DNA of 64,000 nt from Acidobacteriota bacterium (GTDB taxonomy: Bacteria; Acidobacteriota; UBA6911; RPQK01; JADFOI01), in assembly GCA_963663035.1 (NCBI GenBank), contig OY760074.1, forward strand, positions 384,001-448,000, given 5' to 3'. Position numbers and translations under genes: made by a program. The stretch's first letter is position 1. Each line of letters begins with the position of its first letter. The notes below the pieces were generated by a model. The model did not search any database. It saw only the letters and a program-made list of their open reading frames with translations, and had not been told where the DNA came from. This document shows positions 13,667 through 34,612 of this stretch, piece after piece.

Positions 13667-14188
13667 CCGCAATTATTCATAAGTTTGGGGTAGCCTAGTT
13701 CAGGGCTGAGAGTGTGTTCACGATTACAGGCGACTTGTTGAGCCAGTCGAGCCCCTGAGCTCGGCCCCAAACAATCCGTTGGGACACAGACGGGGTGATG
13801 CAAAAGGGCACAGATCCGAGAAGTTCCCGAACCCGGGCACCGGTGAGTCCGTGCTGTTGATCCGGCGGCGGAGCGTCTCAATCTCCAGGTTGTGCCAGGG
13901 AGTCCCGCACAGGTAATCCCGCAGGCGCAGGATTAAGACATAGGCCAGGGCGTGGATGAAGAGTCGGAACTGGTTGGCCAGGAAACGGTGGCAGCTCAAG
14001 CGATCCATGGCCAGATCTTTTTTGAAAGCTTTCACGAAGTTCTCGCACTGGCCCCGTCCGATGTAGTGGTCATACAGCTGCCCGGCCGTGAGATCCTGGC
14101 GGTTGGTGACCACAAAGCGACGGTTGAACCCGCGCTCGCTCACTTCCACCTTGGCCACCATGCGCCGCTCCCGGTCCCAACTGTCGGC
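13667..14188 (-). mobile_element. IS1380-family remnant (right end plus 3' part of transposase)
   Basis: SWDRERRMVAK, RFVVTN, Y-x-GRGQCENFVK, DRLSCHRFLANQFRL are IS1380-type motifs. Terminus CCGCAATTATTCAT is next to CTAG (13663-13666). The 5' junction is approximate. Confidence 0.8.
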
Positions 14189-14809
14189 CGTGCGGATCGC
14201 TTCCGGCAAACCTAACTCTTGAAAGGTTCTCTCGAATACGGGGAAAGCACCTCTTTCCTTAACACTGTCGAGAGCCTCGATGGCGAGCAGATAACGGCTG
14301 GCGTGATCGCTCACGGTGAGAGGATAACAGTACCGTTTGTCTCCCAGCATGAACTCTCCTTTGAAGTCGGCAGACCAAAGGTCATTGGGATTCTGGCTGC
14401 TGGACAATCGAGTCCCCTCTGCCTTGAACCGTCGCCGTTTTCTACAGTTCACCAGGCCGTTGCGATCCAGAACCGCGTGAACTGTGCTCACCGCAGGCGG
14501 CCGTACATTCGGAAACCTACGAATCAGGAGCGCCCGAATCTTGGGAGCTCCCCAATACGGCTTCTCTCGCTTTAGCCTGACCAGGGTCCGTTCCACCTGT
14601 TCGGGCAGTTGGTTTCCGTAACGATGCGGCTTGCGGCTCCGATCCACCAGGGCGTAAGCGCCGGTGTTTTGATAGCGGTTCCAAATCTTGTAGCCCGTCT
14701 TTCTGGATATCCCAAACTCCTCACACAGACGGCTCATGGACTCCCCATCCAACAGCTTCGCTATAAATCTCATTCTCTCGTCCATCACACAGATCTCCTT
14801 CCATGGCAT
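14189..14809 (-). pseudogene. IS481 transposase N-terminal fragment, fused in frame to the IS1380 remnant
   Basis: HTH (SMSRLCEEFGISRKTGYKIWNRY), WGAPKI, and first catalytic Asp region WSADFKG. Confidence 0.88.
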
Positions 14810-20951: not shown

Positions 20952-21548
20952 TCAACGATCTGACCGTACTACCTGCTCCAGTGCTACTTGAGGGCAGATG
21001 TTGTCTCTGATGTAGTCAATCAGATGAGTGGCCACGCCTCGAATCCTTTGCTCTATGGCTGGATCGGTGCTTTGACCTGATTCATCAAAGACCTTGTGAA
21101 CCGCGGCTACTGACACAGGTCCTGGGAGCACAATGGCCCCAACATGAGAGCAGACACTGCGTAGGTGTTCCAAAGCCTTTATGGCTCCAATGCTTCCGGC
21201 AGCTACGCCTATCAAGGCAACCGGTTTGCCACTTAACACTGATGGAAAGCCCAGGTGCTCGATGACCAATTTGATCACGCTACTATAACTACCGTGGTAT
21301 TCCGGTGTGGCAAAAATGACTCCTGTTGCATCGGAGACCTGTTGCTGCAATCTATCCATAACCGAAGAATCCTTGGCGGTGCCAGGCAAAGCCAGATCGA
21401 TTTTTGCGGGATCGATCACCTCAACGGCAGCGTCCTTGTGCTTGTTGATCTCATCGACGACTAAAGCCAAGGCTGCCGTCGTTAAATTGCCCGGACGCAC
21501 ACTCCCGATGAACGCCGCAATTCGGATGTCACAATCTTCCCTGATCAT
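20952..21548 (-). CDS. NADPH-dependent FMN reductase family flavoprotein
   Basis: GSVRPG, ATPEYHGSYS, LSGKPVAL; start set at MIRED after a GGAG RBS. Confidence 0.9.
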   Translation of the reverse strand: MIREDCDIRIAAFIGSVRPGNLTTAALALVVDEINKHKDAAVEVIDPAKIDLALPGTAKDSSVMDRLQQQVSDATGVIFATPEYHGSYSSVIKLVIEHLGFPSVLSGKPVALIGVAAGSIGAIKALEHLRSVCSHVGAIVLPGPVSVAAVHKVFDESGQSTDPAIEQRIRGVATHLIDYIRDNICPQVALEQVVRSDR

Positions 21549-21675
21549 GTGGCTTTCTCCTTCTTGCAGAGATTCTGACAGCATCGTGCACTGATCTCAA
21601 CACAAGAAGGAGTCTCGAACTTGTTCACCCGCTGCTGTTGGGCTAGAATCTCAGTACTGGAGAAAAGGAGAGTGC

Positions 21676-22077
21676 ATGCCATTTTCAGAGCTTGCTGATG
21701 TTCGGTTTGAAGGGGGAGGGGTGATGTTTCAGTATCTCCTCTTTGAGCTGAAAGGGGCTGCCCAGAAAAAAGCCATTGTCCGGGGTTTGAACTACAAATC
21801 CTACGAAGGTAAAACCGAGGAGCAGATCGTGAAGTGGGCCAAGGAGGAGCTGGGGGAAAGCGGCCTCTTGGAAAGTGGAGGTGAGCTCCAGATCGGGGGT
21901 GGTGGAAGCGTGTCCTTCAATACCTACTATGAGACCATCACCGTATTTGGGTCCAGCCAGACCTATGGCGTGGAAGAAGATCGAGAGGCAGTTGTAAAGC
22001 TGATAGAAACTTCATATCCGGAGCACGAGGTATCCTGGTTCAATCCCGAGTCCGCTGACTCGACTTCTAAAGAGTAA
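21676..22077 (+). CDS. Janus/Ocnus (PHPT1 phosphohistidine phosphatase)-like protein
   Basis: Colinear motif matches to PHPT1 recalled from memory: DV-x-x-x-x-x-GV-x-F-x-Y-x-L, K-x-IVRG, GGG-x-V-S, I-x-V-FG-x-S-x-x-YG, YP-x-x-EV-S-W; AAGGAG RBS. Confidence 0.7.
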   Translation: MPFSELADVRFEGGGVMFQYLLFELKGAAQKKAIVRGLNYKSYEGKTEEQIVKWAKEELGESGLLESGGELQIGGGGSVSFNTYYETITVFGSSQTYGVEEDREAVVKLIETSYPEHEVSWFNPESADSTSKE

Positions 22078-22084
22078 AAAAGCC

Positions 22085-22426
22085 ATGCCTGTTGATCTTC
22101 TGAAAGACACTGCAACCATCAAGAAAACGGAACAGCGTAAGCGCAAACCTGTTGTGATCGCTGTCATCAATGACGCCTGTACGGGCTGTGCCGGCTCCCC
22201 TGCCTGTGTGGACTACTGCCCGATAGGGAACTGTATGATCTGGGTACCTGACCAGGAACATCCTCCATTCGGCCGAATAGAAGTCGACGGGCTGTTGTGC
22301 ATCGGTTGCAAGCTTTGTATCAGTAAAGGGCCGGAAGGAGCCTTTTTGGATGGCTGTCCCTGGGACGCGATCGACATGGTCTCAATCAAAGACTATGAGG
22401 CGGAATTGGGCCCCATGCCCTATTAG
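22085..22426 (+). CDS. 2x[4Fe-4S] ferredoxin-like protein
   Basis: CTGCAGSPACVDYCP and CIGCKLC...GCPWDAI. Confidence 0.9.
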   Translation: MPVDLLKDTATIKKTEQRKRKPVVIAVINDACTGCAGSPACVDYCPIGNCMIWVPDQEHPPFGRIEVDGLLCIGCKLCISKGPEGAFLDGCPWDAIDMVSIKDYEAELGPMPY

Positions 22427-22634
22427 CCAGGACTATTCATACGCTGTCTGCTGCAGCGGCGGGATCATCCGTCCGGACTGCGCGACCCACAAGTGGGTGC
22501 CCCCGACCCGCAAGCGGGTACCCCTCGACCTTCTCGGCGTACTGCAAGAGTACGCCTGCGGGGGTCTCGGTCGCGACGCCTTGTCCTGCCGGCGCTTCCA
22601 CCGCTTCGCGACGACAGCCTATGAATAATCCGGG
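22427..22634 (+). mobile_element. MITE-like element family A, copy A1 (208 bp)
   Basis: TIRs CCAGGACTATTCATA and (rc) CCCGGATTATTCATA; flanks TTAG/CTAA; interior similar to three other copies. Confidence 0.85.
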
Positions 22635-22703
22635 CTAAGCGGGCTTCGCGCGCGTTTCAGGTTCCAGGTTTCAGTTGTTAGCTGTCAGGGGTTAGAGACT
22701 TTT

Positions 22704-23354
22704 ATGGCGAGACGAGTTGGACCCATTCAGCTTTCGCTTGCCGGTCTGGTCCTGGTAGCTTGTGTCGTGATTCCCTTTCTCTCCTGGCAGGGAACCTGGT
22801 TCGGGCGGCCTCTGGACGACGAGACACTCACCCAATACCTGGCTGATCAAGAAAAGTCCCGACGGGTTCAGCATGGGCTGGCTCAAATTGTTGAACGCAT
22901 GGAACGGGGTGATCCAGAAGTCGTGCAGTGGTACCAGAGCGTTGCGCAGCTCTCGGAGCACCCGGGTTCAGAGGTGCGAGTGACAGCAGCCTGGGTAATG
23001 GGCCAGGATTCAAGCTCTGATCTGTTCCACAAGGCTCTTCTTCAGATGCTTCATGATGAGGAAGTGCTGGTCAGGCGAAATGCAGCGTTATCACTGGTTC
23101 GATTTGGCGACGACAAGGGGCTAAACGAGTTGCGAGCTATGCTCACCTCCCCTGTCGATGCAGGGAAGGAACCGGTGACGCTTTCTCCAGATCCCACGCA
23201 TGTTTGGGAATCTCTGCGAGCCCTTGCCCTCATAGGGGGTGCTGATGAATTGCAGTTAGTCGACTCAGTCGCTGAGGATCCTCACTTCAGTGAGGAAGTA
23301 CGAGAACAGGCAGTGCTCACTCGAGAAGCGATTCAGGAAAGAATTCAGAAGTAA
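22704..23354 (+). CDS. Membrane-anchored HEAT-repeat protein
   Basis: N-terminal TM; EVRVTAAWVMG, LVRRNAALSLVRFG, EVREQAVL repeats. Confidence 0.85.
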   Translation: MARRVGPIQLSLAGLVLVACVVIPFLSWQGTWFGRPLDDETLTQYLADQEKSRRVQHGLAQIVERMERGDPEVVQWYQSVAQLSEHPGSEVRVTAAWVMGQDSSSDLFHKALLQMLHDEEVLVRRNAALSLVRFGDDKGLNELRAMLTSPVDAGKEPVTLSPDPTHVWESLRALALIGGADELQLVDSVAEDPHFSEEVREQAVLTREAIQERIQK

Positions 23355-23378
23355 GGGCACACGGCTGTGCGCCCCTAC
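23351..23378. repeat. GTAG-type REP-like palindrome between convergent genes
   Basis: GTAAGGGCACACGGCTGTGCGCCCCTAC imperfect palindrome ending CTAC. Confidence 0.55.
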
Positions 23379-23410
23379 GCAAGAAACCTGGAACCCGGGA
23401 AGCGTGCAGT

Positions 23411-24190
23411 TTAGCCCTCGAAGCTGAACTCGATTTCCTGGCTTTCCTCAGGTGCCACCGTTATGACCTGTTCCTGGGTGCCGTACTTCTCGTGCCAAAC
23501 TTCAATGGTGTACTCTCCCGGAGGCAGATTGGGGAGCTCAAAGCTGCCATCCTCTCCCGTGACCGCAAAGTAAGGGTGAGGGACCACACCGACGTAAGCT
23601 TTCATCCAGGGATGAATGTTGCACTTCACCGGAATCATGACCTCGGGGCGTGGGAAGGCTCTGGCCATCTCCTGACCCGCAGCTTGAGAAATGTTCCACT
23701 CCCGGTTCTGCTGGGGCAGGGGGTGAATGTTGTGAGTCGTGTCGTCACTGTTGCGGATGCTGATGTCCTGATTGGTCTGAATTCCAAAAACGTGGGGCAG
23801 GTAGACACACCCGTCCTGCTCCATCATTACGGCCTGGGTGGGAGTATCAAAACTGTATTGTTCCAAACCTGCCTTGACCCAAACAAAGGCATTTTTCAAG
23901 GTGCCATTTTCGTTTACGACCACTTCCTGCGAATAGACAGGACCGCCGTGTTTTTCTTCGCATACGGGCTCTGCACCCATACGAATACGGGCCATCTGAG
24001 GTTGTTCGCCCTGGAAGCTGACTTTGCCTGAAACCGCTCCCGCCTGGGAGAGATCAGGGGCGACTCCCTGCGCTTCCCCTGCCGGGGCCTCGTCAGTAGC
24101 CACCTCAGCAGGAGTTTCTCCTCCTCCGCAGGCAAGGGGAACACAGACTAGAAATAAAAGGGCGATGAGGTGCAGTTTATTTTTCAGCAT
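23411..24190 (-). CDS. Lipoprotein with cupredoxin-like copper motif and carboxypeptidase-regulatory-like domain
   Basis: Lipobox LACGG; THNIH...KCNIHPWM (H, C-x2-H-x2-M); G-S-F-E-L-P-N-L-P-P-G-E-Y-T-I-E-V-W-H-E. Confidence 0.75.
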   Translation of the reverse strand: MLKNKLHLIALLFLVCVPLACGGGETPAEVATDEAPAGEAQGVAPDLSQAGAVSGKVSFQGEQPQMARIRMGAEPVCEEKHGGPVYSQEVVVNENGTLKNAFVWVKAGLEQYSFDTPTQAVMMEQDGCVYLPHVFGIQTNQDISIRNSDDTTHNIHPLPQQNREWNISQAAGQEMARAFPRPEVMIPVKCNIHPWMKAYVGVVPHPYFAVTGEDGSFELPNLPPGEYTIEVWHEKYGTQEQVITVAPEESQEIEFSFEG

Positions 24191-24241
24191 TTTCTTTTCC
24201 TCTCTCAAAAAAAGTTAACCAAAAGGAGGGATTCGATCCTA

Positions 24242-27200
24242 TCATCTTCCTGTCAGCCGACGCTGCTCTGCGGCGGTGTATTGGAACATATAACGTACCA
24301 TGAGCTTGGCATGATCCTGGTCGTAGTCTCGCAAGCTGGGCACGTCGGCCAGACCAAAAACCCAGCGCTGTCCGTCCTGACGAAACAGCCCCGAAGGCAT
24401 GTTCGTCCCCGGTCTGATGATCTCGGGATGGACGATCCAGCGTTCAGTCCAGTCTGATTTGAGGCGCTCTGGGATGAGCAGGAAATTCGGCGCCGTGGCC
24501 GTCTGATCGCCCACCGGGTCTCCCGTAGCATGACACGTCAAGCAGGGAGCCGCCCGGTGAGTGAAGAGCTCTCGCGCCATGGTCAGCTCTCGAGCCGACA
24601 GGGGCTGAAGCACGGGTGCTGTGTAGGGGAGCGACTGCTTGGACAGAGCGACAAAGAAGCGGACCAGCTGCTGAATTTCGGCATTGGATAGATCGAAGGT
24701 GGGCATGCGAGCTTGAAGATAACTGCGGACGCCATTGCGGTTCAGGTCGTTCTCTTCCAGAGCCGGATTTTCCAGGAAGCGGGCCAGCCAGTTGGGATCC
24801 ACCCGGGCTCCTTCACCGACCAGGCTGGGAGGGAGCTGCTCTCGCCAGTCCGGATCCTGATAGAGCGGCAGCTCTTCCAGCACGGTTGCTTCCTGGCCTG
24901 GAGTGAATTGATGGCAGGCCACACAATTGTACTTCTTGACCAACCACCAGCCCTTCTGAATCTCGCTGCGCTCGTCCGATGGCTGGTAGAAAGAATTTTC
25001 AGGGAATTTCGAGTCCGTACTTCCCAGAAGAAAAGTGGTGAGCTGTGTGATCTCTTCAGGGCTCAAATCAAAGTTGGGCATGCGCAATCGTTCCAACGGT
25101 TCTTTGATTTTGCCCTGGTCGAAAACTACCGGATCCGCCAGTTTGCGCTCGAAGAAGCCCTTGAGGTTATACCAACCGCCGTGTTTTGCCTCTGAGGTCA
25201 AAAGTGCAAAGTCCAACCGTTCGAGTGGTTTGCTGCCCTCTTTGGTTAAGTCGGTGCCGATTTTCCCCTCATTCTCCAGTCCACTGATTTCGTGACAACC
25301 GGCACAACCGAAGTTCCGCACGAAAAATCGACCCTCTTCCAACAGTCCCGGGTCATCCATATAAGGGGCCGGGGGATATTCGGCATCTTCATGCTGCTGC
25401 GTCATCAGATAACTGGCGATATCCCTTGTTTCCTCCCAGCTCAGGCGCAAATTGGGCATGACGGTGGCCTGTTGAACGTGGAGGAGATGGTCGCCCAGTG
25501 GGCACTGATTGTGTTCCAGGTCAAATTCGAAGGACAGTCCCTGACTGGCGTAATCTTCCTCAGTGATCTCTCTCTGGTGAACGGGGCAGTAGGGGAGTGT
25601 CCGTTCGCGGGGGTTATGGATCCAGCGGACCAGATAGTCATAATTCGCTTTCTCCCCCACGCGACTGAGATTGGCGGCGAAGGTGCCCCCGCTGGCCTCG
25701 TCTCCCTCTCCCATGGAATGACAGGCCATGCAGCCGCGGGTTTCAAAGAGAGTCTGTCCCTGGACAGGATCTCCCGGGGCTTGCTCGGGCAACTCGGCCT
25801 CAATCCCCGATTGCCAGAGAAAAGCCGAGATGGCCTGTACCTGATCTTCCTCCAAGCGAAATCGGGGCATTTTGGTGGTGGGTCGAAAGTCATGGGGGTT
25901 CTGGATCCAATTCGGGACCCATTCCTTTTTCAACTTGAGCCGCACTTCTTTCAAGTTGGGACCCACCTTTTTGATGGCCATCATCAAACCTGCTTCGCGG
26001 GCTTGGAAGTCTGCAAACTCAGTATCGATGCCGGCGATACTCATGGTGAGAGCTTCGGCTTGGGCGTAAAGTCGCTCGGCTTCCTCATTGGTTTGGGCGC
26101 GGTCAGCAGTTCCTACCGTTCTCTCAATCTGCAACTGGGTCTCGTTTTTTCTGGTGAGGAGATCTGTTAGGGATTTTTGGGTGTCACGCAGTTCTCTGGA
26201 CTCCGGCTCAAAGCCTTCACGAGCGTGGCAGCCCATACAGCCCAGAGAAAAAAGTTGCTTTCCCGCATCCAGGGTAGAAGATAACTCCAGATAGCGGTCA
26301 GCTTCATGACACTGCAAGCAACCCGCTTCAAAATTCTCGGATGGATAGAGTGGCCACAACCAATGTTTATACTGGCCATGAGCCTCAGTCGTGCCGACGG
26401 TGGCAACCCCGTTGCCATTGTGACAGGGTGAGCAGCCGAAGGTCTCTGGGTCATGGATTTGAAGCAGTTCAGGGTTGGGGTGGCTGGTAAAAACGCGACT
26501 CCCTCCCATGGCTTCTCGCGTGATCAAAACGGGTTCCAGAGTGCCCACATGACAGGATTCACACCGATCGACCAGCCCCAGTTCGGCATTGTGAATTTGT
26601 TTGATCTCAATCCTGAAGTCGTCCAGGCCGTCCAGTAGGCCATCCACTTGGGTCTCGGTCAAACTGGTCAGACGAGCGTTCAGGAAAGCATCCCGTTCTC
26701 GTCTCAGCTCGGTCGAGTGTCTCAAAAGCTCCACGGTACGACCCTGGAGCTCTCCTTGCCGAGCCTTGAGGGAGTTGAATTCCTCTTCCATTTGCGCGTA
26801 AGTATAGTCGTTGCTTTCAATGTTTCCGTCAGCGTCTGGTATCTCCAGAAGATAGGGGCCTATCCTCAGCGCTTCCACGTCCCTCTCCAGCCCCTCCTTC
26901 TGGGCATCACCGGATGTTTCCAGTACATAGATAGCTGCCTGCAGGCGACTCCTCTCGGTGGTAAACGTTTTGGTGATGGCCGCCAGTTGCAGTCTGACCA
27001 GGCGCTCTTCGGCTTCGATCTCAGCCAACTCAGGTTCGATCTCTGTTTCGGCCTCCTGAAGCGCTTGCTGGAGCTCTGTATAACCTTGCGAGCCCCGAAC
27101 TTCCTGCTCTTCCTCACCCCGTCTGGGCTTCAGATCGATGAGCACCTGTTGGTAACGCTCCACAAAATCCTCCTGGAAACCAATCCAGGGACGCAGACCC

Positions 27201-27373
27201 CAAACTTCATCGTACAGGGCCCACACCAGGCTCAGGATGAGCAGCAGAGAAAAAATAGCAGTGGCTGTAGCCAGAGAGGATTTGACAATAGGATCCTCCT
27301 GGGGAATGGGTCGTTCGTCAAGTCTGGACCGTGATCGCCACCAGGACAGAAGACGTTGTACTGGATTGCTCAT
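24242..27373 (-). CDS. Membrane-anchored octaheme cytochrome c associated with the Rieske/cytochrome b complex
   Basis: Eight CxxCH motifs (CESCH, CSPCH, CLQCH, CMGCH, CMACH, CAGCH, CVACH, CLTCH); several class-I-like distal MP motifs; one N-terminal TM helix and coiled-coil segments. Confidence 0.92.
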   Translation of the reverse strand: MSNPVQRLLSWWRSRSRLDERPIPQEDPIVKSSLATATAIFSLLLILSLVWALYDEVWGLRPWIGFQEDFVERYQQVLIDLKPRRGEEEQEVRGSQGYTELQQALQEAETEIEPELAEIEAEERLVRLQLAAITKTFTTERSRLQAAIYVLETSGDAQKEGLERDVEALRIGPYLLEIPDADGNIESNDYTYAQMEEEFNSLKARQGELQGRTVELLRHSTELRRERDAFLNARLTSLTETQVDGLLDGLDDFRIEIKQIHNAELGLVDRCESCHVGTLEPVLITREAMGGSRVFTSHPNPELLQIHDPETFGCSPCHNGNGVATVGTTEAHGQYKHWLWPLYPSENFEAGCLQCHEADRYLELSSTLDAGKQLFSLGCMGCHAREGFEPESRELRDTQKSLTDLLTRKNETQLQIERTVGTADRAQTNEEAERLYAQAEALTMSIAGIDTEFADFQAREAGLMMAIKKVGPNLKEVRLKLKKEWVPNWIQNPHDFRPTTKMPRFRLEEDQVQAISAFLWQSGIEAELPEQAPGDPVQGQTLFETRGCMACHSMGEGDEASGGTFAANLSRVGEKANYDYLVRWIHNPRERTLPYCPVHQREITEEDYASQGLSFEFDLEHNQCPLGDHLLHVQQATVMPNLRLSWEETRDIASYLMTQQHEDAEYPPAPYMDDPGLLEEGRFFVRNFGCAGCHEISGLENEGKIGTDLTKEGSKPLERLDFALLTSEAKHGGWYNLKGFFERKLADPVVFDQGKIKEPLERLRMPNFDLSPEEITQLTTFLLGSTDSKFPENSFYQPSDERSEIQKGWWLVKKYNCVACHQFTPGQEATVLEELPLYQDPDWREQLPPSLVGEGARVDPNWLARFLENPALEENDLNRNGVRSYLQARMPTFDLSNAEIQQLVRFFVALSKQSLPYTAPVLQPLSARELTMARELFTHRAAPCLTCHATGDPVGDQTATAPNFLLIPERLKSDWTERWIVHPEIIRPGTNMPSGLFRQDGQRWVFGLADVPSLRDYDQDHAKLMVRYMFQYTAAEQRRLTGR

Positions 27374-28305
27374 ATGTTAAACCAGGGAGTGACCATGACG
27401 TTCTTGATCCGGAAGACCAGACGAAGGAACATCTTTACCGGAAGAGCCCACATGATCAGTAAGAAACTTTGTAAGGTCAGGTATTGGACAAGGGTCATTT
27501 GCTGGTAGATTTTCCGATTGAATTTATTCCAGACAAAAAGTTTGTGGGTGAGCCACCCAAAAATGACGAAATAGAGCCCCACTGCACTAGCGCCCACAAG
27601 CCCTGACCAGGGCTGGGTGGTAATGCCGAACAGCTCATGGAGGTCTCGGTTGGTCTCAAAGACCAAGCGATGGTGATCCCAGGTTTCACCGGGCCAGAAC
27701 CACATCCAGCCCGGACCCCGGATGAAGGTGCCGATAAAAACCATAGACAGCCATAAAACCATAAAACCAAAGCAGAAAGTGAGAATGGCAAACTTGCGCT
27801 GGCGAAAGGTGTAATAGCCGTTTCCCAGGGGGTTGCAGTCGACATAGGGAATGATCATCAGCCCCACCAGGATGAGAGTCGGCATCACCACACCGGCAAT
27901 CCAGGGGTCAAAGTAGACCAGCATCTCCTGGAGACCCAGAAAGTACCAGGGAGCTTTGGCCGGATTCATGGTGAGGTTGGGATTGGCCGGTTCCTCCAAC
28001 GGAGCGTTCAGGGTGATCGACCAGACCATCAGGATTCCGGTGACAATGATGGCGGTCAGAAATTCCACTCTGAGAAGGTAGGGCCAAACATAGAGCTTTT
28101 GCGCCCATCCTTCTCGATAGGGTTCAACTTTCCGGTGGTGTGTCTTGGCCAGCTCCGGATCTTTGGTCAAACGGTCAATCAGGCGATCGTTAGCCAGGGC
28201 CTGCCGAAAACCGTACCAGGTAAAGAAAGGGATCAAAAACAGAAGCGCCACGATGGGAACATTGTCAGGCGCCGAAATAATTTCCCAGAGTTGTCCCCAA
28301 TCCAT
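27370..28305 (-). CDS. Cytochrome b C-terminal (subunit IV-like) protein
   Basis: APLEEPANPNLTMNPAKAPWYFLGLQE (PEWY-equivalent), multiple TM helices. Confidence 0.85.
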   Translation of the reverse strand: MDWGQLWEIISAPDNVPIVALLFLIPFFTWYGFRQALANDRLIDRLTKDPELAKTHHRKVEPYREGWAQKLYVWPYLLRVEFLTAIIVTGILMVWSITLNAPLEEPANPNLTMNPAKAPWYFLGLQEMLVYFDPWIAGVVMPTLILVGLMIIPYVDCNPLGNGYYTFRQRKFAILTFCFGFMVLWLSMVFIGTFIRGPGWMWFWPGETWDHHRLVFETNRDLHELFGITTQPWSGLVGASAVGLYFVIFGWLTHKLFVWNKFNRKIYQQMTLVQYLTLQSFLLIMWALPVKMFLRLVFRIKNVMVTPWFNI

Positions 28306-28329
28306 TCTTTTCAGTTGCCTCCTCCCCGA

Positions 28330-29256
28330 CTACTTACGGGGAAACTTCATCTCCGATTCCAACATGACCGGGGCCGGTCCCGAAATACTTCCGTCCTTGC
28401 GGACACGCCAGAAATGCACGGTCAGGAAGATAGTGAGGATCAGGGGAATGGCAATGCAGTGCCAGATATAAGCACGCAGCAAGGCATTGGCGTCCACGAT
28501 GGATCCCCCTAAAAGCGCAAAACGCACGTCGTTGAAGGCGGTCATCCCGAGTTGAGCTCCAAAGGGGCCTTCATGGCCCAAGAGCGGTGTCGCTCGAGCC
28601 ATATTGGTTCCCACCGTCACCGCCCAGAAGCCCAACTGGTCATCGGGAAGCAGATAGCCCGTGAAGGAGAGCAGCAGGGTCAAGACCAGGCAGATCACAC
28701 CCACGGTCCAGTTGAATTCTCGCGGAGTCTTATAAGACCCGGTCAGGAAGACGCGAAACATATGCAGCCAGACCGTGATGATCATCAAGTGGGCCCCCCA
28801 GCGGTGCATATTGCGCAGCAGACCTCCAAAGGGAACATCGTTATGCAGATACATGATGTCCTGGTAGGCCTGACCCTTGGTGGGGTGATAGTAGAACATG
28901 AGAAAGACGCCGGTGATGGTCAGAACGATGAAAAGATAAAGGGTGATACCACCCATCCCCCAGGTAAAACCGAAACGGATGGCATCGCGATTCACCTTAG
29001 CCGGCTGCACGTGCAGGAAGACGTTGGTCAGGACCGCCAGGGCCCGGCTGCGGGGGGTCTCATCCAGTTTGTGGCGGAAGATCGATTTCCACAGTTGGGT
29101 CCGCTTGTAGTCTTTGGCTGCCTTAAGGTCTTGCATTCCTTTCGCGATGAAAGGATTCAAGGCTTCTTTGAGGCGGTCAATCAGAGAGGACGGCCCCGCT
29201 GAGCTCTGCTCTCCTGACTTGGATTCTTCTCTCTTGCTCTTAGCGTCGTCGTTCAT
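28330..29256 (-). CDS. Cytochrome b N-terminal (b6-like) subunit
   Basis: [11 protein letters not shown]...LHMFR, PREFNW, FTGYLLP, WHC...VHFWR heme ligands. Confidence 0.95.
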
Positions 29257-29288
29257 GGGTCACTTGTGGTGAGGAACTGCCAGGTAAG

Positions 29289-29495
29289 CCCTGATTATGC
29301 ATAGGTTCTCGTCATGAAGCGGCGGAAGTGCCGACCTGGCAAGGCGCGTGACCCGCAAGCGGGTGCCCCAGGCTCCCGCAAACGTACTCTTGAGTACGTT
29401 GAGGAGGCCGAGGGGTACCCGCATGTGCGGGTCGCGCAACGCTGGCAGGGCGGATGATTTCGCCGCTGCAGTAGAGAACTTATTCATAATCAGGG
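29289..29495 (-). mobile_element. MITE-like element family A, copy A2 (207 bp)
   Basis: TIRs CCCTGATTATGCATAGGTTCTC and (rc) CCCTGATTATGAATAAGTTCTC; reverse orientation relative to A1 and A4. Confidence 0.85.
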
Positions 29496-30065
29496 CTATA
29501 CACCCGTCAAGGAAGCACCATCATCTTCGAAGTGGCAGGTCGCTCCCGGGGCACACTGATAGAGCTGACTGGCGTCCACCACGATCTGCCCTTCAGCATC
29601 GAGCTCCAGATTTGCCCGGTCCATCGGCCGGGGCGCAGGACCTTCAAAATTAATCCCTTCGCTGTCGTATCCGCTGCCATGGCAGGGGCATTTAAATTTG
29701 TTCTCGCTCTCCACCCAATCGGGAGTGCAGCCCAGATGTGTACATTTGGCGTAGATGACAAAAAGTCCCTGGGTGTTCCGAACGACCCAGATCCGATGCT
29801 TCTGCTGAAATCGAGTATCGACCCCAAAACCGAAATCTGAAGGAGGGCCAATTCGGAATTTGGTCTTGGGTTCGAAGAGAGTTCGAGGAAAGAAAAAACG
29901 CATGGCCATCAGTAGATTGACGCCAATAAATCCAAAGACACAGGTCCAGGCGAACTTGCGTCGGTGGATGAGTTGCTTTTCGCTGGGACCCTGCTTGTCT
30001 TCACCGACCCCTTGCGCTTGATCTTCCTGTTGAACCTGGTCTTCTTGGGTCTTTTCTTCCGCCAT
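29496..30065 (-). CDS. Rieske 2Fe-2S subunit
   Basis: CTHLGC and CPCHGSGY boxes, GPAPRPM; twin-Arg-like HRRKF plus TM helix. Confidence 0.96.
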
Positions 30066-30148
30066 AGTGAGAACCTACGTTTAAGCGTTACAACTTATAT
30101 TCTGTTCCGGAACTCTGTCAAGATTTTCCTCTACTGGTTTTCTGCCGG

Positions 30149-30418
30149 CTATTTGTCCTGTCGAAAGGTGATAAAGAGTATCGTTGACATAATCGTAATC
30201 GGGGGAATTAAAAGCACTAAGATACCCATTTTCACGGCCTCAATGGCGCTCTCCGCCTGACCCTCCAGGGCAGTCCTGCACATGGCGCAGCCCTGGGCTG
30301 CGGCCGGGGAGGAGAAAAACAGAAGGAACAAACAGGAAAAGAACAAGAGAGGAAGGATGGAGTGCTGTGCTTTCCTCCTCTTTTGTGTTCCGGTGTTCAT
30401 TGGGTTCATTGCTCTCAT
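30149..30418 (-). CDS. Small membrane protein with CAMC motif
   Basis: Signal-like N-terminus ending AAAQ, then GCAMCRTAL and a C-terminal TM helix; lies within the operon. The longer track ORF is an over-extension. Confidence 0.7.
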   Translation of the reverse strand: MRAMNPMNTGTQKRRKAQHSILPLLFFSCLFLLFFSSPAAAQGCAMCRTALEGQAESAIEAVKMGILVLLIPPITIMSTILFITFRQDK

Positions 30419-30420
30419 CG

Positions 30421-30726
30421 TTACCTGCGCAGTTCCAGGAGCCTCAAGCTGTCGGGGAAGAAAATAAACAGTAAGGCGATGCAGATCACCACAGCCGGAA
30501 TGAGCGTCAGTGTGAGGCTGAGCTTCTCGAATCGAAGATGCATAAAGTAGGCTACAATCAATCCCGTCTTGATCAGAGAAAAGCCTACCAGGAGGATCAG
30601 CATCGGAGTCACAGGAATAGCCAGATAAGCCAGGATCACTTCTGCGATCGTCAAGGCCAGCAACCCCACCCAAACCGTCAGGTAAAGCCGGTTGCCATGA
30701 CTTTGATGTGCTGCTTCCATATTCAT
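30421..30726 (-). CDS. Cytochrome c oxidase subunit IV family protein
   Basis: Y-x-x-VW-x-x-LL-x-LT-x-x-E and K-x-x-LIVAYFMHLRFE motifs. Confidence 0.9.
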   Translation of the reverse strand: MNMEAAHQSHGNRLYLTVWVGLLALTIAEVILAYLAIPVTPMLILLVGFSLIKTGLIVAYFMHLRFEKLSLTLTLIPAVVICIALLFIFFPDSLRLLELRR

Positions 30727-30749
30727 CTTGCTGGGCTCTCCTTGGTTGT

Positions 30750-31373
30750 TCAAATCTTCCAGGACAGCAGGTAGACCATGGGAAAAATAAACATCCAAAC
30801 CAGGTCCACGAAATGCCAGTAAAGTCCGCTGATTTCCACGTCCTCGGAAGTAAACTTTCCCTTTCCGAACCCCCAGGCAATCACTCCCAGGTAGATGACG
30901 CCGCCTGTGACGTGGGTCATGTGAAGACCGGTTAAGGTGAAGAAGGATGCACCGAAGAGCGGAGCTCCCCAGGGATTGCCAAAGGGTGTCACTCCTTCAT
31001 GGATCAGCTCCAGCCACTCGTTGGTGTGCAGGATAATAAAGAGTACCCCCCCCAGGATGGTGGCTAAAAGCCAGCCCACGGTCCGCCGTAGCTCCTTTTG
31101 CTTGGCTGCTGCTACAGCCATGACCATGGTTAAAGAGCTGGAGAGCAGACAGAAGGTCATCACGCTGGCCATGAAAATACTGAAGCCTTCAAAGGGCCTC
31201 GGCCAGTCTTCACTGGCAACGCGCACAAAGCTGTAAGCTATCAGCATCGCCGAAAAAGTCAGTGTATCGGAGAGAAGGAAAAGCCACATCCCTAATTTAT
31301 TCGAGCCAATGGCGTAGGGAGATCTTCCGCCTCCCCAGGCAGAGAGCCTGGTCTCACTTACCATGTCAGCCAT
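30750..31373 (-). CDS. Cytochrome c oxidase subunit III family protein (second copy)
   Basis: KLGMWLFLLSD, FFTLTGLHMTHV, GLYWHFVDLVW. Confidence 0.93.
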   Translation of the reverse strand: MADMVSETRLSAWGGGRSPYAIGSNKLGMWLFLLSDTLTFSAMLIAYSFVRVASEDWPRPFEGFSIFMASVMTFCLLSSSLTMVMAVAAAKQKELRRTVGWLLATILGGVLFIILHTNEWLELIHEGVTPFGNPWGAPLFGASFFTLTGLHMTHVTGGVIYLGVIAWGFGKGKFTSEDVEISGLYWHFVDLVWMFIFPMVYLLSWKI

Positions 31374-31377
31374 CCAT

Positions 31378-32037
31378 TTACCTCCAGATCAGAAGCAGGA
31401 GAAACAGGTAAATCCACAACCCGTCCATGAAATGCCAGTAGAGCGCAGTCACACCCAGGGTGGTTTCTCCCAGACCACCAGAGTTCCTCCGCCACACTTT
31501 CCAGGAAAGGTAGGAAAGGGCCATCACGCCTCCTAAGAGGTGGACGCCATGAGTTCCCGTTAATAAATAGAAAAAGGAGCTGCTGGGATTCGTGCTGATG
31601 TATACTCCACCCGCCACCAGTTCCCGCCAGGCCAGGAGCTGTCCAACCAGGAAGCTTACCCCCAAGCCAGTGGTCGCCCACCACCAGCGTTGAAAATGAG
31701 CTTGGTTATGACGCCAGCGACGAGCTTTTTCGAAAGTCAGACTACTGGCCAGCAGAATCAGTGTGTTGGGCCACAAAATTCCCGGGAGTGCTATAGGGAG
31801 CCAGTCATCGGACAGGCCCTTGCGGACAACGTAAGCACTGGTAAAGGCAGCAAAAACCATCAGGATAGCGGCCAATCCAAGCATCATGCCAGTATAGTAT
31901 CTCCGATCGGGAAGAGATGCGGGGCTGTCAGATCCGTCTCCCTGATTGCCACCCAAACCACCTCCAGCAACACCGCCACCTTTTCCTCCTGGTGATATCG
32001 GCTGTTTGGTGGGGAGAGGAGGGGCAATGGTGGCCAT
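31378..32037 (-). CDS. Cytochrome c oxidase subunit III family protein (first copy)
   Basis: NTLILLASS, FFYLLTGTHGVH, YWHFMDGLW. Confidence 0.93.
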   Translation of the reverse strand: MATIAPPLPTKQPISPGGKGGGVAGGGLGGNQGDGSDSPASLPDRRYYTGMMLGLAAILMVFAAFTSAYVVRKGLSDDWLPIALPGILWPNTLILLASSLTFEKARRWRHNQAHFQRWWWATTGLGVSFLVGQLLAWRELVAGGVYISTNPSSSFFYLLTGTHGVHLLGGVMALSYLSWKVWRRNSGGLGETTLGVTALYWHFMDGLWIYLFLLLLIWR

Positions 32038-32040
32038 GGC

Positions 32041-33822
32041 TTAGCTCGCGGGTGTCTTCTGGGCGGTCTGCATCGTATAGTCCTGAGGTTCGTCCGGCAC
32101 GCTGTATTCATAAGGTCCCTGGTACACCACCGGAAGTCTCCCGGCAAAGTTGTCATGGGGTGGGGGCGAGGGAATCTCCCATTCCAGGGTGGTCGCTTGC
32201 CACGGATTCTCCTCGGCCTTTCTGCCTTTGAACATACTCCAGAAAAGGTTGACAATAAAAATCAGTTGGGCAGTGATGGTGATGAATGCAGCGATGCTGA
32301 CGAACAGGTGAATCTGCCCTAAGGGCTCGAGGAAATCAAAAGCGGTCAACTCGGCATAACGGCGTGGGTTACCCGCCATGCCCAGAAAATGCATGGGCGT
32401 AAAGATGGCGTACACGCCGACGAAGGTCAACCCGAAATGCACCTTTCCCCACAACTCACTCATGTGCCGGCCGAACATCTTGGGGAACCAATAATAGGTG
32501 GCTGCAAACATTCCGAAAATGGAGGCCACCCCCATGATCATGTGGAAGTGTGCCACCACGAAGTAGGTATCATGGAGAAAAATATCAGTGGAAGGTTGAT
32601 TCAGAAACAAGCCGCTGAGTCCACCGGTGACAAACAGAGAGACAAAACCGATGGCAAACAACATGGGTGTGGCCAGGCGAATGTTGCCACGCCACAGAGT
32701 TCCCAGCCAGTTAAAAGTCTTAATGGCGGAGGGGACTGCAATAACGGTCGTCAACAGGGAGAAAGCGATGGCGGTATAGGGACTCATGCCACTCATGAAC
32801 ATGTGGTGTCCCCACACCATAAAGCCCAGAATGCCAATGCCGAGAAGGGCATAGACCATTGCCCGGTATCCAAAAATCGGTTTGCGCGAGAAGGTGGAGA
32901 GAATCTGGGAGGTGACCCCCATGCCGGGAAGGATGGCAATGTAGACCTCGGGATGGCCAAAGAACCAGAAGAGGTGCTGCCAAAGCAGGGGAGATCCCCC
33001 CTTGTGGTCGATTAGCTGATCGCTGACGACCAGCCCGCCGGGGATAAAGAAACTGGTCCCGGCCGAGCGATCCATGAGCAGGAGAACGCCGGCAGCCAGC
33101 AGCACGCCGAAGGCCAGCAGTCCCAGGATGGCCGTGACGAACCAGGCCCACACGGTCAGAGGCATTCGCATTAAGGTCATTCCCTCGGCGCGCAGGTCGA
33201 TGGTGGTGGTGATGAAATTCAGGGCTCCCAGCAAGGCTGCCACGCAGAAGATGGCGATACTGTAGATCCACAATGTTTGACCTGTCCCCAGACCGGGACC
33301 CGCGATTTCTCCCAGTGCGCTCAAAGGTGGGTAGGCTGTCCATCCCGATGTGGGAGGACCTCCTGCCACAAAGAAGGAGGCCAACAGAACCACCAGTGCC
33401 AAAAACGTGAACCAGAAGGAGAGCATGTTCAAGATCGGAAAGGCCATGTCAGCGGCCCCAATCTGGATGGGCAGGAAATAGTTTCCAAACCCGCCCTGGG
33501 GAGCCGTGGTCAAGACGAAAAAAACCATGATGGTCCCGTGCATGGTCAAAAAAGAGAGATAAAACTCCGGGGTCATCACGCCCCCGGGAGCTCCTGTTGG
33601 GAAAAAGGTCTCCAGCAGGGGAAGCTCCGTGCCTGGCCAAACCAGATTAAAACGAATAAAGATCGACAGGATCATCCCCACCACAACCGAGAAAAGAGCT
33701 AAGAAGAAGTATTGAAGGCCGATCACCTTGTGGTCTGTGCTAAAGATCCACTTTCGAATGAAGCCTGTGGGTGCTTCATGATGGACGACCTGGCTGCTTG
33801 GGGCGGCATCTGCCATAGTCAC
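32041..33822 (-). CDS. ctaD: Cytochrome c oxidase subunit I (A1 type)
   Basis: STDHKVIG, HGTIM, WFFGHPEVY, WGHHMF, HDTYFVVAHFH, PRRY. Confidence 0.97.
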   Translation of the reverse strand: MTMADAAPSSQVVHHEAPTGFIRKWIFSTDHKVIGLQYFFLALFSVVVGMILSIFIRFNLVWPGTELPLLETFFPTGAPGGVMTPEFYLSFLTMHGTIMVFFVLTTAPQGGFGNYFLPIQIGAADMAFPILNMLSFWFTFLALVVLLASFFVAGGPPTSGWTAYPPLSALGEIAGPGLGTGQTLWIYSIAIFCVAALLGALNFITTTIDLRAEGMTLMRMPLTVWAWFVTAILGLLAFGVLLAAGVLLLMDRSAGTSFFIPGGLVVSDQLIDHKGGSPLLWQHLFWFFGHPEVYIAILPGMGVTSQILSTFSRKPIFGYRAMVYALLGIGILGFMVWGHHMFMSGMSPYTAIAFSLLTTVIAVPSAIKTFNWLGTLWRGNIRLATPMLFAIGFVSLFVTGGLSGLFLNQPSTDIFLHDTYFVVAHFHMIMGVASIFGMFAATYYWFPKMFGRHMSELWGKVHFGLTFVGVYAIFTPMHFLGMAGNPRRYAELTAFDFLEPLGQIHLFVSIAAFITITAQLIFIVNLFWSMFKGRKAEENPWQATTLEWEIPSPPPHDNFAGRLPVVYQGPYEYSVPDEPQDYTMQTAQKTPAS

Positions 33823-33832
33823 ACTCTCCTGC

Positions 33833-34612
33833 TTAGAATTCAGCCTGCTCCTGTAGCCATTGGGCGTAATCTTCGTCCGATAACACCTCGAGGAAGCTTC
33901 TCATGCGATGATGTCCCAGGCCACAGAGCTCGGCGCAGGCGATCTCATAGGTTCCGGCTCTTGTGGCAGTAAATCGAAGGGGGATCATCATTCCCGGTAC
34001 CGTGTCCTGTTTGATCCGCAGCTCTCGCACCGAAAAGCTGTGGGTGACGTCTTTGGAGCGCAGGAGTAACTCAATGGGACGGTTCAGGGGAACAGCCATG
34101 GTGGGAAGCACGAGGTCATCTTCTGCAGCTGGATCCTCCAGGTCTAACCCCAGGGGGTTTCCCCCGGAATCGTCAATCAGCTCCGGTTGGATATTGCCAA
34201 ACTGACCATCGGGACCTGGGTACCGAATGTTCCAGGCAAACTGCTGTCCCGTCACTTCAATTTGAATGGCATCCTCAGGGGCAGCGTCAATATACAGATC
34301 GAACCAGGCCTGAAAGCCGAGCAGGACCATCCCAAAGAACAAGGCCGTAGTGGCCAGGGTCCAGGCCACCTCCATTTTGTTGCTTCCATGGTAGTAGTAG
34401 GCCTTCTGACCCGGCCGCTCCCGATATTTCAGCACAAAATACCCCAGGCCCACCTGGGCCAGGATAAAAACCACTCCCGTGACCACCAGGGTGTAGAAAA
34501 ACTGTGTATCTACGATCTCCCCGTGAGCCGAAGCGGACTCGGGGAACCACTGTCCGGTAAACAGAATCACAGTGATTAGGGTAATAATCCAAATGGTGAT
34601 CGCCAGTAACAT
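33833..34612 (-). CDS. ctaC: Cytochrome c oxidase subunit II (CuA, no fused heme c)
   Basis: DVTHSF, CAELCGLGHHRM. Confidence 0.96.
   Translation of the reverse strand: MLLAITIWIITLITVILFTGQWFPESASAHGEIVDTQFFYTLVVTGVVFILAQVGLGYFVLKYRERPGQKAYYYHGSNKMEVAWTLATTALFFGMVLLGFQAWFDLYIDAAPEDAIQIEVTGQQFAWNIRYPGPDGQFGNIQPELIDDSGGNPLGLDLEDPAAEDDLVLPTMAVPLNRPIELLLRSKDVTHSFSVRELRIKQDTVPGMMIPLRFTATRAGTYEIACAELCGLGHHRMRSFLEVLSDEDYAQWLQEQAEF

What the first reader, a model, noticed from the sequence alone, without database searches (positions are those of the whole stretch)
21676..22077. Bacterial homologue of eukaryotic PHPT1/Janus lacking the catalytic histidine
Seen versus recalled human PHPT1: LADVRFEGGGVMFQYLL ~ IPDVDIDSDGVFKYVL; KAIVRG ~ KEIVRG; GGGSVSF ~ GGGRISH; ITVFGSSQTYG ~ IHVYGYSMAYG; SYPEHEVSW ~ KYPDYEVTW. 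The match is colinear over the whole length. The His53-equivalent region (AEYHADI) reads GKTEEQI, and the Lys21 and Arg78 equivalents are Gln and Ser. Known: the family is described mainly in eukaryotes. Inference: a pseudo-phosphatase or repurposed fold acting with the adjacent ferredoxin.
Basis: partly seen in the sequence, partly recalled or inferred. Interest (0 to 1): 0.75.

Follow-up and report, generated by a model that had tools for sequence, protein, structure and literature searches.

The report
Histidine-less PHPT1-fold partner of a ferredoxin
A small Acidobacteria protein has the fold of the animal phosphohistidine phosphatase PHPT1 but has lost its catalytic residues, and it always sits just upstream of one ferredoxin gene, so it has probably been reused as that ferredoxin's binding partner.

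Summary
Window 21676..22077 (+) is a real 133-aa gene under purifying selection (dN/dS about 0.2). It matches Pfam Ocnus/Janus (2e-10, 41.1 bits, cut-off 23) and human PHPT1 by sequence (5e-6). Its model matches PHPT1 by fold (VIA Z 15.4, rmsd 2.0 A over 111 residues, next Z 4.8).

In 21 diverse bacterial relatives the His53 column holds no His (0 of 21). The Arg78 column is Ser, Thr or Ala and the Lys21 column varies; only Arg45 is kept.

The gene occurs in 48 of 76 genomes of one Acidobacteriota order. A 113-aa 2x[4Fe-4S] ferredoxin occurs in 46 of the same genomes, always directly downstream on the same strand. The median spacer is 7 nt.

A complex prediction supports binding (ipSAE 0.72, best control 0.01). 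The ferredoxin's beta face and C-terminal tail sit on the former PHPT1 substrate site.

Best reading: a non-catalytic, repurposed PHPT1 fold that serves as a dedicated ferredoxin subunit. What the pair does is open. The ferredoxin with a HEAT-repeat membrane protein lies next to cytochrome oxidase genes in several lineages.

The parts
21665..21670 (+). Shine-Dalgarno AAGGAG, 5 nt before the ATG of the Janus-like gene
   Evidence: Read directly from the sequence. All homologues align from Met1.
21676..22077 (+). Janus/PHPT1-fold protein, 133 aa, acidic (pI 4.56), no Cys, a single His (His117). PHPT1 His53, Lys21 and Arg78 correspond to Glu44, Gln19 and Ser78.
   Evidence: dN/dS is 0.19-0.22.
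22085..22426 (+). 113-aa ferredoxin. It has two Cys motifs (C32-x2-C35-x5-C41-x3-C45-P and C72-x2-C75-x2-C78-x12-C91-P), a basic RKRKP N-terminal stretch and a C-terminal G-x-[LM]-P-[YW] tail. It starts 7 nt after the Janus-like stop codon.
   Evidence: Pfam Fer4_7 27.5 bits, cut-off 27. Alignment A3 has all 8 Cys invariant in 26 rows. Found in 46 of 76 genomes of the order, always next to the Janus-like gene. dN/dS is 0.05-0.11.
22704..23354 (+). HEAT-repeat protein with one N-terminal hydrophobic helix. It is a conserved neighbour of the ferredoxin, but on the opposite strand in most genomes, so it is linked rather than co-transcribed.
   Evidence: Pfam HEAT_2 4.8e-15. Adjacent to the ferredoxin in 33 of 35 loci, on the opposite strand in 27. 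Also near the ferredoxin in 7 of 9 loci of families that lack the Janus-like gene.

Best explanation
The 133-aa protein is a true homologue of eukaryotic PHPT1/Janus that no longer works as a phosphohistidine phosphatase. In a branch confined, as far as searched, to one order of Acidobacteriota, three things changed: the general-base histidine was lost, the two phosphate-anchoring basic residues were lost, and the gene became fixed directly upstream of a conserved 2x[4Fe-4S] ferredoxin gene. The two are most likely made from one transcript and form a 1:1 complex. In that complex the ferredoxin's small beta-sheet face and its C-terminal tail (G-x-L/M-P-Y) lie on the surface that in PHPT1 binds the phosphopeptide substrate.

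The protein would thus be an accessory, stabilising or adaptor subunit of the ferredoxin rather than an enzyme.

Shown: homology, fold, loss of the catalytic residues, co-occurrence and synteny. Inferred: binding (model only), loss of activity, and the role of the complex. The role may lie in aerobic respiration, because the ferredoxin and its HEAT-repeat neighbour sit beside cytochrome oxidase genes in several lineages, including this window.
For: Homology and fold:
- Pfam Ocnus 2e-10; PHPT1 5e-6.
- AlphaFold2 model: pLDDT 83.2, pTM 0.76.
- Foldseek: 5 hits at E <= 0.001, all PHPT1 (best 7.7e-10, TM 0.72/0.81), next hit E 0.09.
- VIA-align against 48,161 chains: PHPT1 Z 15.4, next Z 4.8.

Site loss in 21 rows of alignment A2:
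- His53 column: 0 His.
- Arg78 column: S14, T6, A1.
- Lys21 column: K8, Q7, R5, N1.
- His102 column: D, N, E or Q.
- Arg45 column: R in 21 of 21.
- His53 is described as the general base, and Lys21 and Arg78 as anchoring the substrate or stabilising transition states, in passages of PMC11277029 and PMC4817053.

Selection: dN/dS 0.19-0.22.

Linkage:
- Janus-like gene in 48 of 76 genomes of the order; ferredoxin in 46 of 76.
- All 46 ferredoxin genes lie within about 600 bp downstream of the Janus-like gene, on the same strand.
- The 2 extra Janus-like hits lie at contig ends.
- Same strand in 35 of 35 loci (28 genomes), with a stop-to-start spacer of median 7 nt, range -1 to 150.

Binding:
- ipSAE 0.72, 0.71 and 0.73 in three runs; best of 3 controls 0.01.
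- That mark was reached by 58 of 80 solved complexes and 2 of 110 mismatched pairs.
- The runs agree in at least 84% of contacts, and the partner's pLDDT is at least 81.
- No PHPT1-ferredoxin complex turned up among solved structures, so a pass from memory is unlikely.

Interface:
- It includes the equivalents of 7 of the 10 PHPT1 site residues named in PMC4817053 (positions 19, 42, 43, 45, 78, 93, 95).
- Conserved columns are enriched there: 8 of 26 interface positions against 10 of 107 others, Fisher p 0.009.
Against: - No experiment supports binding or loss of activity. The complex score is a model's confidence, obtained with my own alignments and with clusters riding along, unlike the calibration.
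- Arg36 (Arg45 in PHPT1), the GGG loop and Ser/Thr78 stay invariant or nearly so. Glu100 and Arg103 are also invariant. A changed catalytic site is therefore not excluded.
- The same ferredoxin exists at 59-73% identity in 14 genomes of five other Acidobacteriota families where the Janus-like gene was not found. The ferredoxin does not need this partner in general.
- Ferredoxin columns that separate partnered from unpartnered ferredoxins are not significantly enriched at the interface: 3 of 24 against 4 of 89, p 0.16.
- No fused Janus-ferredoxin protein was found, which is weak evidence.
Confidence: 0.6

Rival explanations
1. It is still an enzyme, a hydrolase or phosphotransferase with a remodelled active site. 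For example, the retained Arg36 would hold the phosphoryl or carboxylate group and the invariant Glu100 would replace His53 as general base. It would act on a small molecule or on a modified form of the ferredoxin or of another protein in the same pathway.
For: Arg36, Gly75-77, Glu100 and Arg103 are invariant in 21 of 21 rows. Ser/Thr78 is present in 20 of 21, and Asn39 and Asn82 are nearly invariant. Purifying selection is clear. PHPT1 uses a general-base mechanism without a covalent intermediate (passage of PMC11277029), which another base could in principle take over.
Against: Of the PHPT1 phosphate-binding set, only Arg45 survives. Lys21, Arg78 and His53 are lost, and the Ser94 column is S11, N6, D2, L1, A1. 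The E-x-(D/N)-R motif with Glu100 and Arg103 also occurs in the His-bearing homologues P0064 and P0067. It is therefore a feature of that branch and not a replacement for His53. The former pocket is predicted to be occupied by the ferredoxin.
Confidence: 0.15
2. It works in the same pathway as the ferredoxin without forming a stable complex. It could be a ligand sensor, a regulator, or an assembly or maturation factor that is only co-expressed with the ferredoxin. In that case the predicted interface would be an artefact.
For: Operon linkage alone does not show binding; the tool's own test found that 7 of 44 blind-picked neighbours passed (tool description). The ferredoxin occurs without this gene in other families. 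In family f36 an unrelated 94-aa ORF with no Pfam match holds the upstream position.
Against: The complex score of 0.72 against 0.01 in controls is a mark reached by 2 of 110 mismatched pairs. Conserved residues concentrate at the predicted interface. Co-occurrence is strict, 46 of 46.
Confidence: 0.2
3. It is a decaying relic of a horizontally acquired PHPT1 gene with no function.
For: The catalytic residues are gone and the taxonomic range is narrow: 14 of 301 genomes sampled from the phylum, all in one order.
Against: dN/dS is about 0.2. The frames are intact and single-copy in 48 of 76 genomes across 12 of 16 families of the order. There are 12 invariant columns at 28-89% identity. Position next to the ferredoxin is conserved.
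Confidence: 0.02

Closest known systems
Human PHPT1 (14-kDa phosphohistidine phosphatase; PDB 2hw4, 2nmm, 2ai6)
   Same: Same fold and colinear sequence: 23-26% identity, Z 15.4, rmsd 2.0 A over 111 residues. The GGG loop, Arg45, Tyr52, Gly92, Tyr97-Gly98 and the C-terminal YP-x-x-x-V-x-W are shared.
   Different: His53, Lys21, Arg78 and His102 are replaced. Helix 1 is 9 residues longer and the 30-36 loop is missing. The protein is acidic rather than carrying a positive active-site surface (pI 4.56). It is encoded in an operon with a ferredoxin. PHPT1 is a stand-alone enzyme (recalled).
Drosophila Janus-A/Janus-B/Ocnus and other eukaryotic PF05005 members
   Same: Same Pfam family. The nearest Atlas clusters after its own are eukaryotic Ocnus clusters, score 0.90.
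   Different: The His-bearing sequences found here (P0060, P0064-P0070) keep x-H-x-(D/E)-I and GGGR. They lie across a 98/96 branch from the His-less group.
His-bearing bacterial Ocnus homologue in a Candidatus Saccharibacteria MAG (P0067, locus L048)
   Same: Bacterial, small (113 aa), and shares the G-x-E-P-(D/N)-R motif with the Acidobacteriota branch.
   Different: It keeps His53, Arg78 (GGGR) and Lys at the Lys21 column. I saw no ferredoxin-like Cys motif in the 12 ORFs of at least 80 aa listed for L048 1500-7000; no family search was run on them.
Pseudophosphatases / pseudoenzymes in general (such as STYX; recalled, not tested)
   Same: A catalytic fold that has lost its catalytic residues and is kept for binding.
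   Different: A different fold, and here the predicted ligand is an iron-sulfur protein. I know of no pseudo-PHPT1, and my searches found none.
SixA, the bacterial phosphohistidine phosphatase
   Same: It is the bacterial counterpart in function of active PHPT1 (titles and abstracts of PMC7948535 and PMC6282199).
   Different: An unrelated family. Nothing here suggests that the window protein does SixA's job.

Membership tests
Janus/Ocnus family (Pfam PF05005), as a sequence family | Score over the curated gathering cut-off along most of the profile | tested here: met
   41.1 bits against 23, profile positions 5-107 of 108. 40.8 bits in the genome search. All but one of the 33 close homologues carry the precomputed PF05005 label.
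Janus/Ocnus family, as a fold | PHPT1 alpha/beta fold (six strands, two helices) | tested here: met
   Model pLDDT 83.2. Foldseek E 7.7e-10, TM 0.72/0.81. VIA Z 15.4, rmsd 2.0 A, 111 residues aligned, next Z 4.8.
Phosphohistidine phosphatase (PHPT1-type enzyme) | Catalytic general-base His53 | tested here: not met
   Glu44 in the window protein. 0 of 21 rows have His in this column: E7, A4, V3, R3 and others.
Phosphohistidine phosphatase (PHPT1-type enzyme) | Phosphate- and substrate-anchoring Lys21 and Arg78 | tested here: not met
   Gln19 and Ser78 in the window protein. The columns read K8/Q7/R5/N1 and S14/T6/A1. The roles of these residues are taken from passages of PMC4817053.
Phosphohistidine phosphatase (PHPT1-type enzyme) | Arg45 near the active site (recalled as part of the basic pocket) | tested here: met
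   Arg36, R in 21 of 21 rows. The term Arg45 did not occur in PMC4817053, so its role is recalled.
Phosphohistidine phosphatase (PHPT1-type enzyme) | Hydrolysis of phosphohistidine or phosphoramidate | not testable with these tools
   Needs an enzyme assay.
2x[4Fe-4S] bacterial-type ferredoxin (the partner, 22085..22426) | Two Cys motifs that together give eight cluster ligands | tested here: met
   C32, C35, C41, C45 and C72, C75, C78, C91 are invariant in 26 of 26 rows. Fer4_7 scores 27.5 bits against a cut-off of 27. No NCBIfam model is reached.

The most novel reading that the evidence does not exclude
An ancestral bacterial PHPT1-type phosphatase was turned into a pseudoenzyme. Its emptied phosphopeptide-binding cleft now clamps the C-terminal tail and beta face of a dedicated 2x[4Fe-4S] ferredoxin, giving a heterodimeric ferredoxin specific to one order of Acidobacteriota. 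This ferredoxin, with its membrane-anchored HEAT-repeat neighbour, would serve the aerobic respiratory chain. One possibility is supplying electrons for haem A synthesis or oxidase maturation, because the ferredoxin-HEAT pair sits beside cox genes and DUF420 in other families and beside the bc/cox cluster here.
Probability: 0.12. Interest if true: 0.75.

Novelty: new variant of a known kind. Interest (0 to 1): 0.55.

Why it matters
PHPT1 is studied mainly as an animal phosphohistidine phosphatase, and its fold has no other solved relatives.

A bacterial branch that has lost the catalytic set but is strictly conserved next to a ferredoxin gives three things:
- a natural example of how this fold binds a protein ligand at its substrate site;
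- a probable first pseudoenzyme of the family;
- a handle on an uncharacterised ferredoxin that is conserved across Acidobacteriota (over 1000 relatives) and linked to cytochrome oxidase genes.

The His-bearing homologue in Saccharibacteria shows that the family is not purely eukaryotic.

The finding is of moderate reach. It concerns one order of mostly uncultured bacteria, and the role of the complex is unknown.

Tried and rejected
- **FG-GAP hits.** Long proteins of 500-3000 aa that matched query 72-127 several times in the representative search are FG-GAP repeat proteins (3 of 3 tested: P0055, P0057, P0059). The match is compositional, not homology.
- **Fused or longer forms.** None found among 388 candidates, which is weak evidence.
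- **NCBIfam.** No family for the Janus-like protein. Only sub-threshold hits for the ferredoxin and the HEAT protein.
- **PDB sequence search with the ferredoxin.** No hit at E <= 0.01.
- **AlphaFold2 of the ferredoxin alone.** pLDDT 50.2, too poor for a fold search, so none was run.
- **The search for related loci with the broad alignment A2.** It failed for lack of a conserved stretch. I used the genome search instead.
- **Ferredoxin columns that separate partnered from unpartnered ferredoxins.** Not enriched at the interface (3 of 24 against 4 of 89, p 0.16) and confounded by kinship.
- **Expression.** Two metatranscriptome runs hold exact contig pieces only inside the ferredoxin gene (22216-22375 and 22296-22471). 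No contig lay on the Janus-like gene. These are contigs of low depth, DNA carry-over is possible, and absence of cover shows nothing.
- **Promoter and terminator scan of 21400-23500.** Nothing above shuffles on the + strand.
- **FMN reductase (20952..21584, -), read divergently.** Present only in the nearest relative (L002 and L009, which are the same place), so it is not part of the unit.
- **HEAT protein as a lipoprotein.** The LVAC motif in the window copy is not conserved in 18 orthologues, so I rejected this. Topology is unresolved.
- **Earlier findings of this scan.** None for the Janus-like protein. One unrelated note for the ferredoxin query.
- **Literature.** Searches listed no paper on bacterial PHPT1/Ocnus homologues or on a PHPT1-ferredoxin link, judged by titles and abstracts only.

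Full report
**The gene.** Window 21676..22077 (+) is an ATG-initiated ORF of 133 codons. AAGGAG lies at 21665-21670, five bases before the start. The protein is acidic (pI 4.56). It has no Cys and a single His, His117.

**Similarity to PHPT1 is real.**
- Pfam-A gives PF05005 (Janus/Ocnus) at E 2e-10 and 41.1 bits, against a cut-off of 23, over profile positions 5-107 of 108.
- phmmer against all PDB chains returns 4 sequences at E <= 10. The top three are human PHPT1 (5e-6 to 7e-6, query 8-123 on chain 11-122). The fourth, a nanobody at E 0.19, is noise.
- An AlphaFold2 model built on 21 relatives has pLDDT 83.2 and pTM 0.76.
- Foldseek against the PDB finds 5 chains at E <= 0.001, all PHPT1 (best 7.7e-10; TM 0.72 by query, 0.81 by target). 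The next hit is at E 0.09.
- VIA-align against 48,161 representative chains gives PHPT1 2nmm_A at Z 15.4 (rmsd 2.0 A, 111 residues). The next Z is 4.8.

**The catalytic set is gone, family-wide.**
- From the HMMER alignment: Lys21 -> Gln19, Arg45 -> Arg36, His53 -> Glu44, Arg78 -> Ser78, His102 -> Asp102.
- Passages of PMC11277029 describe His53 as the general base that activates water, and His102 as important for activity.
- Passages of PMC4817053 list Lys21, His53, Ala54, Arg78, Ser94 and Ala96 as the catalytic site, and Glu51, Tyr52, His53, Tyr93 and Met95 as substrate-binding residues.
- In alignment A2 (the window protein plus 20 relatives at 28-89% identity) the columns read as follows:

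| PHPT1 residue | Residues in the 21 rows |
|---|---|
| His53 | E7, A4, V3, R3, Y, Q, D, N (no His) |
| Arg78 | S14, T6, A1 |
| Lys21 | K8, Q7, R5, N1 |
| His102 | D11, N6, E3, Q1 |
| Arg45 | R21 |

- Invariant columns are G15, V16, Y20, L21, R36, G75-77, Y84, G92, E100 and R103. Nearly invariant are F18, N39, Y43, L59, N82 and G98.
- The only column rich in His is 117 (H15, Y5, C1), which aligns with Tyr116 of PHPT1.

**Relatives and range.**
- The word-indexed search found 33 proteins at 56-96% identity, one of them named as from an Acidobacteria MAG.
- The exhaustive search of 1.84 billion representatives found 37 proteins at E <= 0.001. They fall into three groups:
  - His-less small proteins. 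The 16 I fetched from P0034-P0051 are all His-less.
  - Eight long proteins. The three I tested are FG-GAP repeat proteins, so the matches are spurious.
  - Weaker hits that include eight His-bearing PHPT1-like proteins (P0060, P0064-P0070).
- One of the His-bearing proteins, P0067 (Ocnus 83.6 bits), is encoded in a Candidatus Saccharibacteria MAG. Canonical-looking members therefore exist in bacteria.
- In a tree of 29 rows the 21 His-less and 8 His-bearing rows fall on either side of one branch, with support 98/96. One loss of the His suffices. The root is unknown, so no direction of transfer is claimed.
- The Atlas places the protein in a cluster of 62 members, commonest phylum Acidobacteriota. 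The next clusters are eukaryotic Ocnus.
- In whole genomes, the A2 profile matches 48 of 76 genomes of the window's order, in 12 of 16 families.
- It matches 14 of 301 genomes sampled across the phylum, all 14 in that order.
- The Pfam model alone detects fewer, 10 of 301.
- The gene is single-copy and lies in open frames.
- dN/dS against three relatives is 0.19-0.22.

**Linkage to the ferredoxin.**
- Seven bases after the stop codon begins a 113-aa protein with two Cys motifs (Fer4_7 27.5 bits). All eight Cys are invariant in 26 rows.
- Searched as a protein at E <= 1e-10, it is found in 46 of the same 76 genomes.
- Comparing the coordinates, all 46 copies lie directly downstream of the Janus-like gene on the same strand.
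- The two genomes with only the Janus-like gene (G320, G327) have it at a contig end.
- The remaining 28 genomes have neither gene. They comprise all 25 searched genomes of four families, plus three genomes of the window's own family that are 65-89% complete.
- In 35 of 35 fetched loci (28 different genomes, 7 places fetched twice) the genes are co-oriented. The stop-to-start spacer has a median of 7 nt, range -1 to 150.
- The ferredoxin is far better conserved (66-93% identity, dN/dS 0.05-0.11) than its partner (37-89%).

**Predicted complex.**
- The job used the ferredoxin (alignment A3), two 4Fe-4S clusters and the Janus-like protein (A2).
- It scored ipSAE 0.72, 0.71 and 0.73. The three controls scored 0.00, 0.00 and 0.01.
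- That mark was reached by 58 of 80 solved complexes and 2 of 110 mismatched pairs. The calibration differs from this job: I used my own alignments, and small molecules rode along.
- The runs agree in at least 84% of contacts, and the partner's pLDDT is at least 81.
- The Janus-like interface is residues 14-17, 19, 39-43, 45, 47, 77-78, 80, 82-85, 89, 91-93, 95, 122 and 124.
- By the alignment, this covers the equivalents of Lys21, Glu51, Tyr52, Ala54, Arg78, Tyr93 and Met95. That is 7 of the 10 PHPT1 site residues.
- Conserved columns are enriched at the interface: 8 of 26 against 10 of 107, p 0.009.
- The ferredoxin side is residues 27, 29-30, 48-49, 52, 54, 66-71, 97, 99, 103-104 and 106-112. 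These are its short strands and the C-terminal tail, which ends G-x-[LM]-P-[YW] in all 19 partnered rows.
- It is my inference, not a result, that the retained Arg36 may now hold a carboxylate of that tail.

**Wider context.**
- The ferredoxin family is large: 1028 proteins at E <= 1e-5.
- It also occurs, at 59-73% identity, in 14 sampled genomes of five other Acidobacteriota families where A2 finds no Janus-like gene.
- In 7 of 9 such loci a HEAT-repeat protein with an N-terminal hydrophobic helix lies near the ferredoxin, together with a DUF420 membrane protein (PF04238, 160 bits). In four of them cox genes are present too.
- In the window the HEAT gene (22704..23354) is followed by a cluster on the opposite strand. 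It holds:
  - a 1043-aa multihaem cytochrome c;
  - a split cytochrome b;
  - a Rieske protein;
  - COX3 (two copies), COX1 and COX2.
- In most other families of the order the trio lies instead among housekeeping genes: EF-P, an AddAB-like helicase-nuclease and an ABC-2 permease. There the HEAT gene is convergent with the ferredoxin (27 of 33 loci).
- The stable unit is therefore Janus-like gene -> ferredoxin, with the HEAT gene as a linked but separately transcribed neighbour.
- A respiratory role for the ferredoxin is a lead from the neighbourhood only.

**Verdict.**
- The protein belongs to the Janus/Ocnus family by sequence and fold. It fails the defining catalytic features of a PHPT1-type phosphatase.
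- Its most likely role is a non-catalytic binding subunit of the downstream ferredoxin (confidence 0.6).
- Rivals are a remodelled enzyme (0.15), a pathway partner without stable binding (0.2) and a relic (0.02).
- I found no paper on such bacterial proteins (searches; listings and abstracts only). Supplementary files were not consulted.

Noticed in passing
window 22430-22700 (core about 22504-22640): The spacer between the ferredoxin and HEAT genes holds one copy of a dispersed repeat of about 135 bp. There are 43 further matches in the window's own genome at 69-100% identity (most 69-93%). Depth in a DNA run rises from about 15 to about 4900 over it. The RNA fold is not clearly better than shuffles (z -1.9).
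   Followed up: partly
window 23411-34612 (- strand): A respiratory supercluster: a CarboxypepD_reg-domain protein, a 1043-aa multihaem cytochrome c, a split cytochrome b (C-terminal and N-terminal parts), a Rieske protein, two COX3-like proteins, COX1 and COX2.
   Followed up: partly
L040 6338-6622 (-), L041 6345-6689 (-), L047 6699-6983 (-): In family f36, which lacks the Janus-like gene, a conserved ORF of about 94 aa (114 aa in L041) with no Pfam match lies directly upstream of the ferredoxin on the same strand. The ferredoxin there also ends in MPY or MTF. It may be an unrelated protein in the same role.
   Followed up: no
L048 4001-4342 (+): A 113-aa Ocnus-family protein that keeps His53, GGGR and Lys at the Lys21 column. 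It is encoded in a Candidatus Saccharibacteria MAG, so it is a canonical-looking PHPT1 homologue in a bacterium.
   Followed up: partly
L042 7178-7609, L045 4538-4972 and five other loci: In Acidobacteriota families without the Janus-like gene, the ferredoxin-HEAT pair lies near a DUF420 membrane protein (7 of 9 loci). In four of these loci it also lies next to COX1 and COX3 genes.
   Followed up: partly
window 13724-14809 (-): A transposase ORF (DDE_Tnp_1_4 together with HTH_32/HTH_28 domains) lies about 7 kb upstream of the finding.
   Followed up: no
window 20952-21584 (-): An NADPH-dependent FMN reductase (PF03358, 5.9e-29) is read divergently from the Janus-like gene. This neighbour was seen only in the closest relative (L002 and L009, one place fetched twice), so it is not a conserved part of the unit.
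   Followed up: yes
L028 9550-10419 (-) and orthologues: Outside the window's genus the HEAT-repeat neighbour is longer (about 280-300 aa against 216). It carries weak matches to biotin-lipoyl / HlyD barrel-sandwich models after the HEAT repeats.
   Followed up: no
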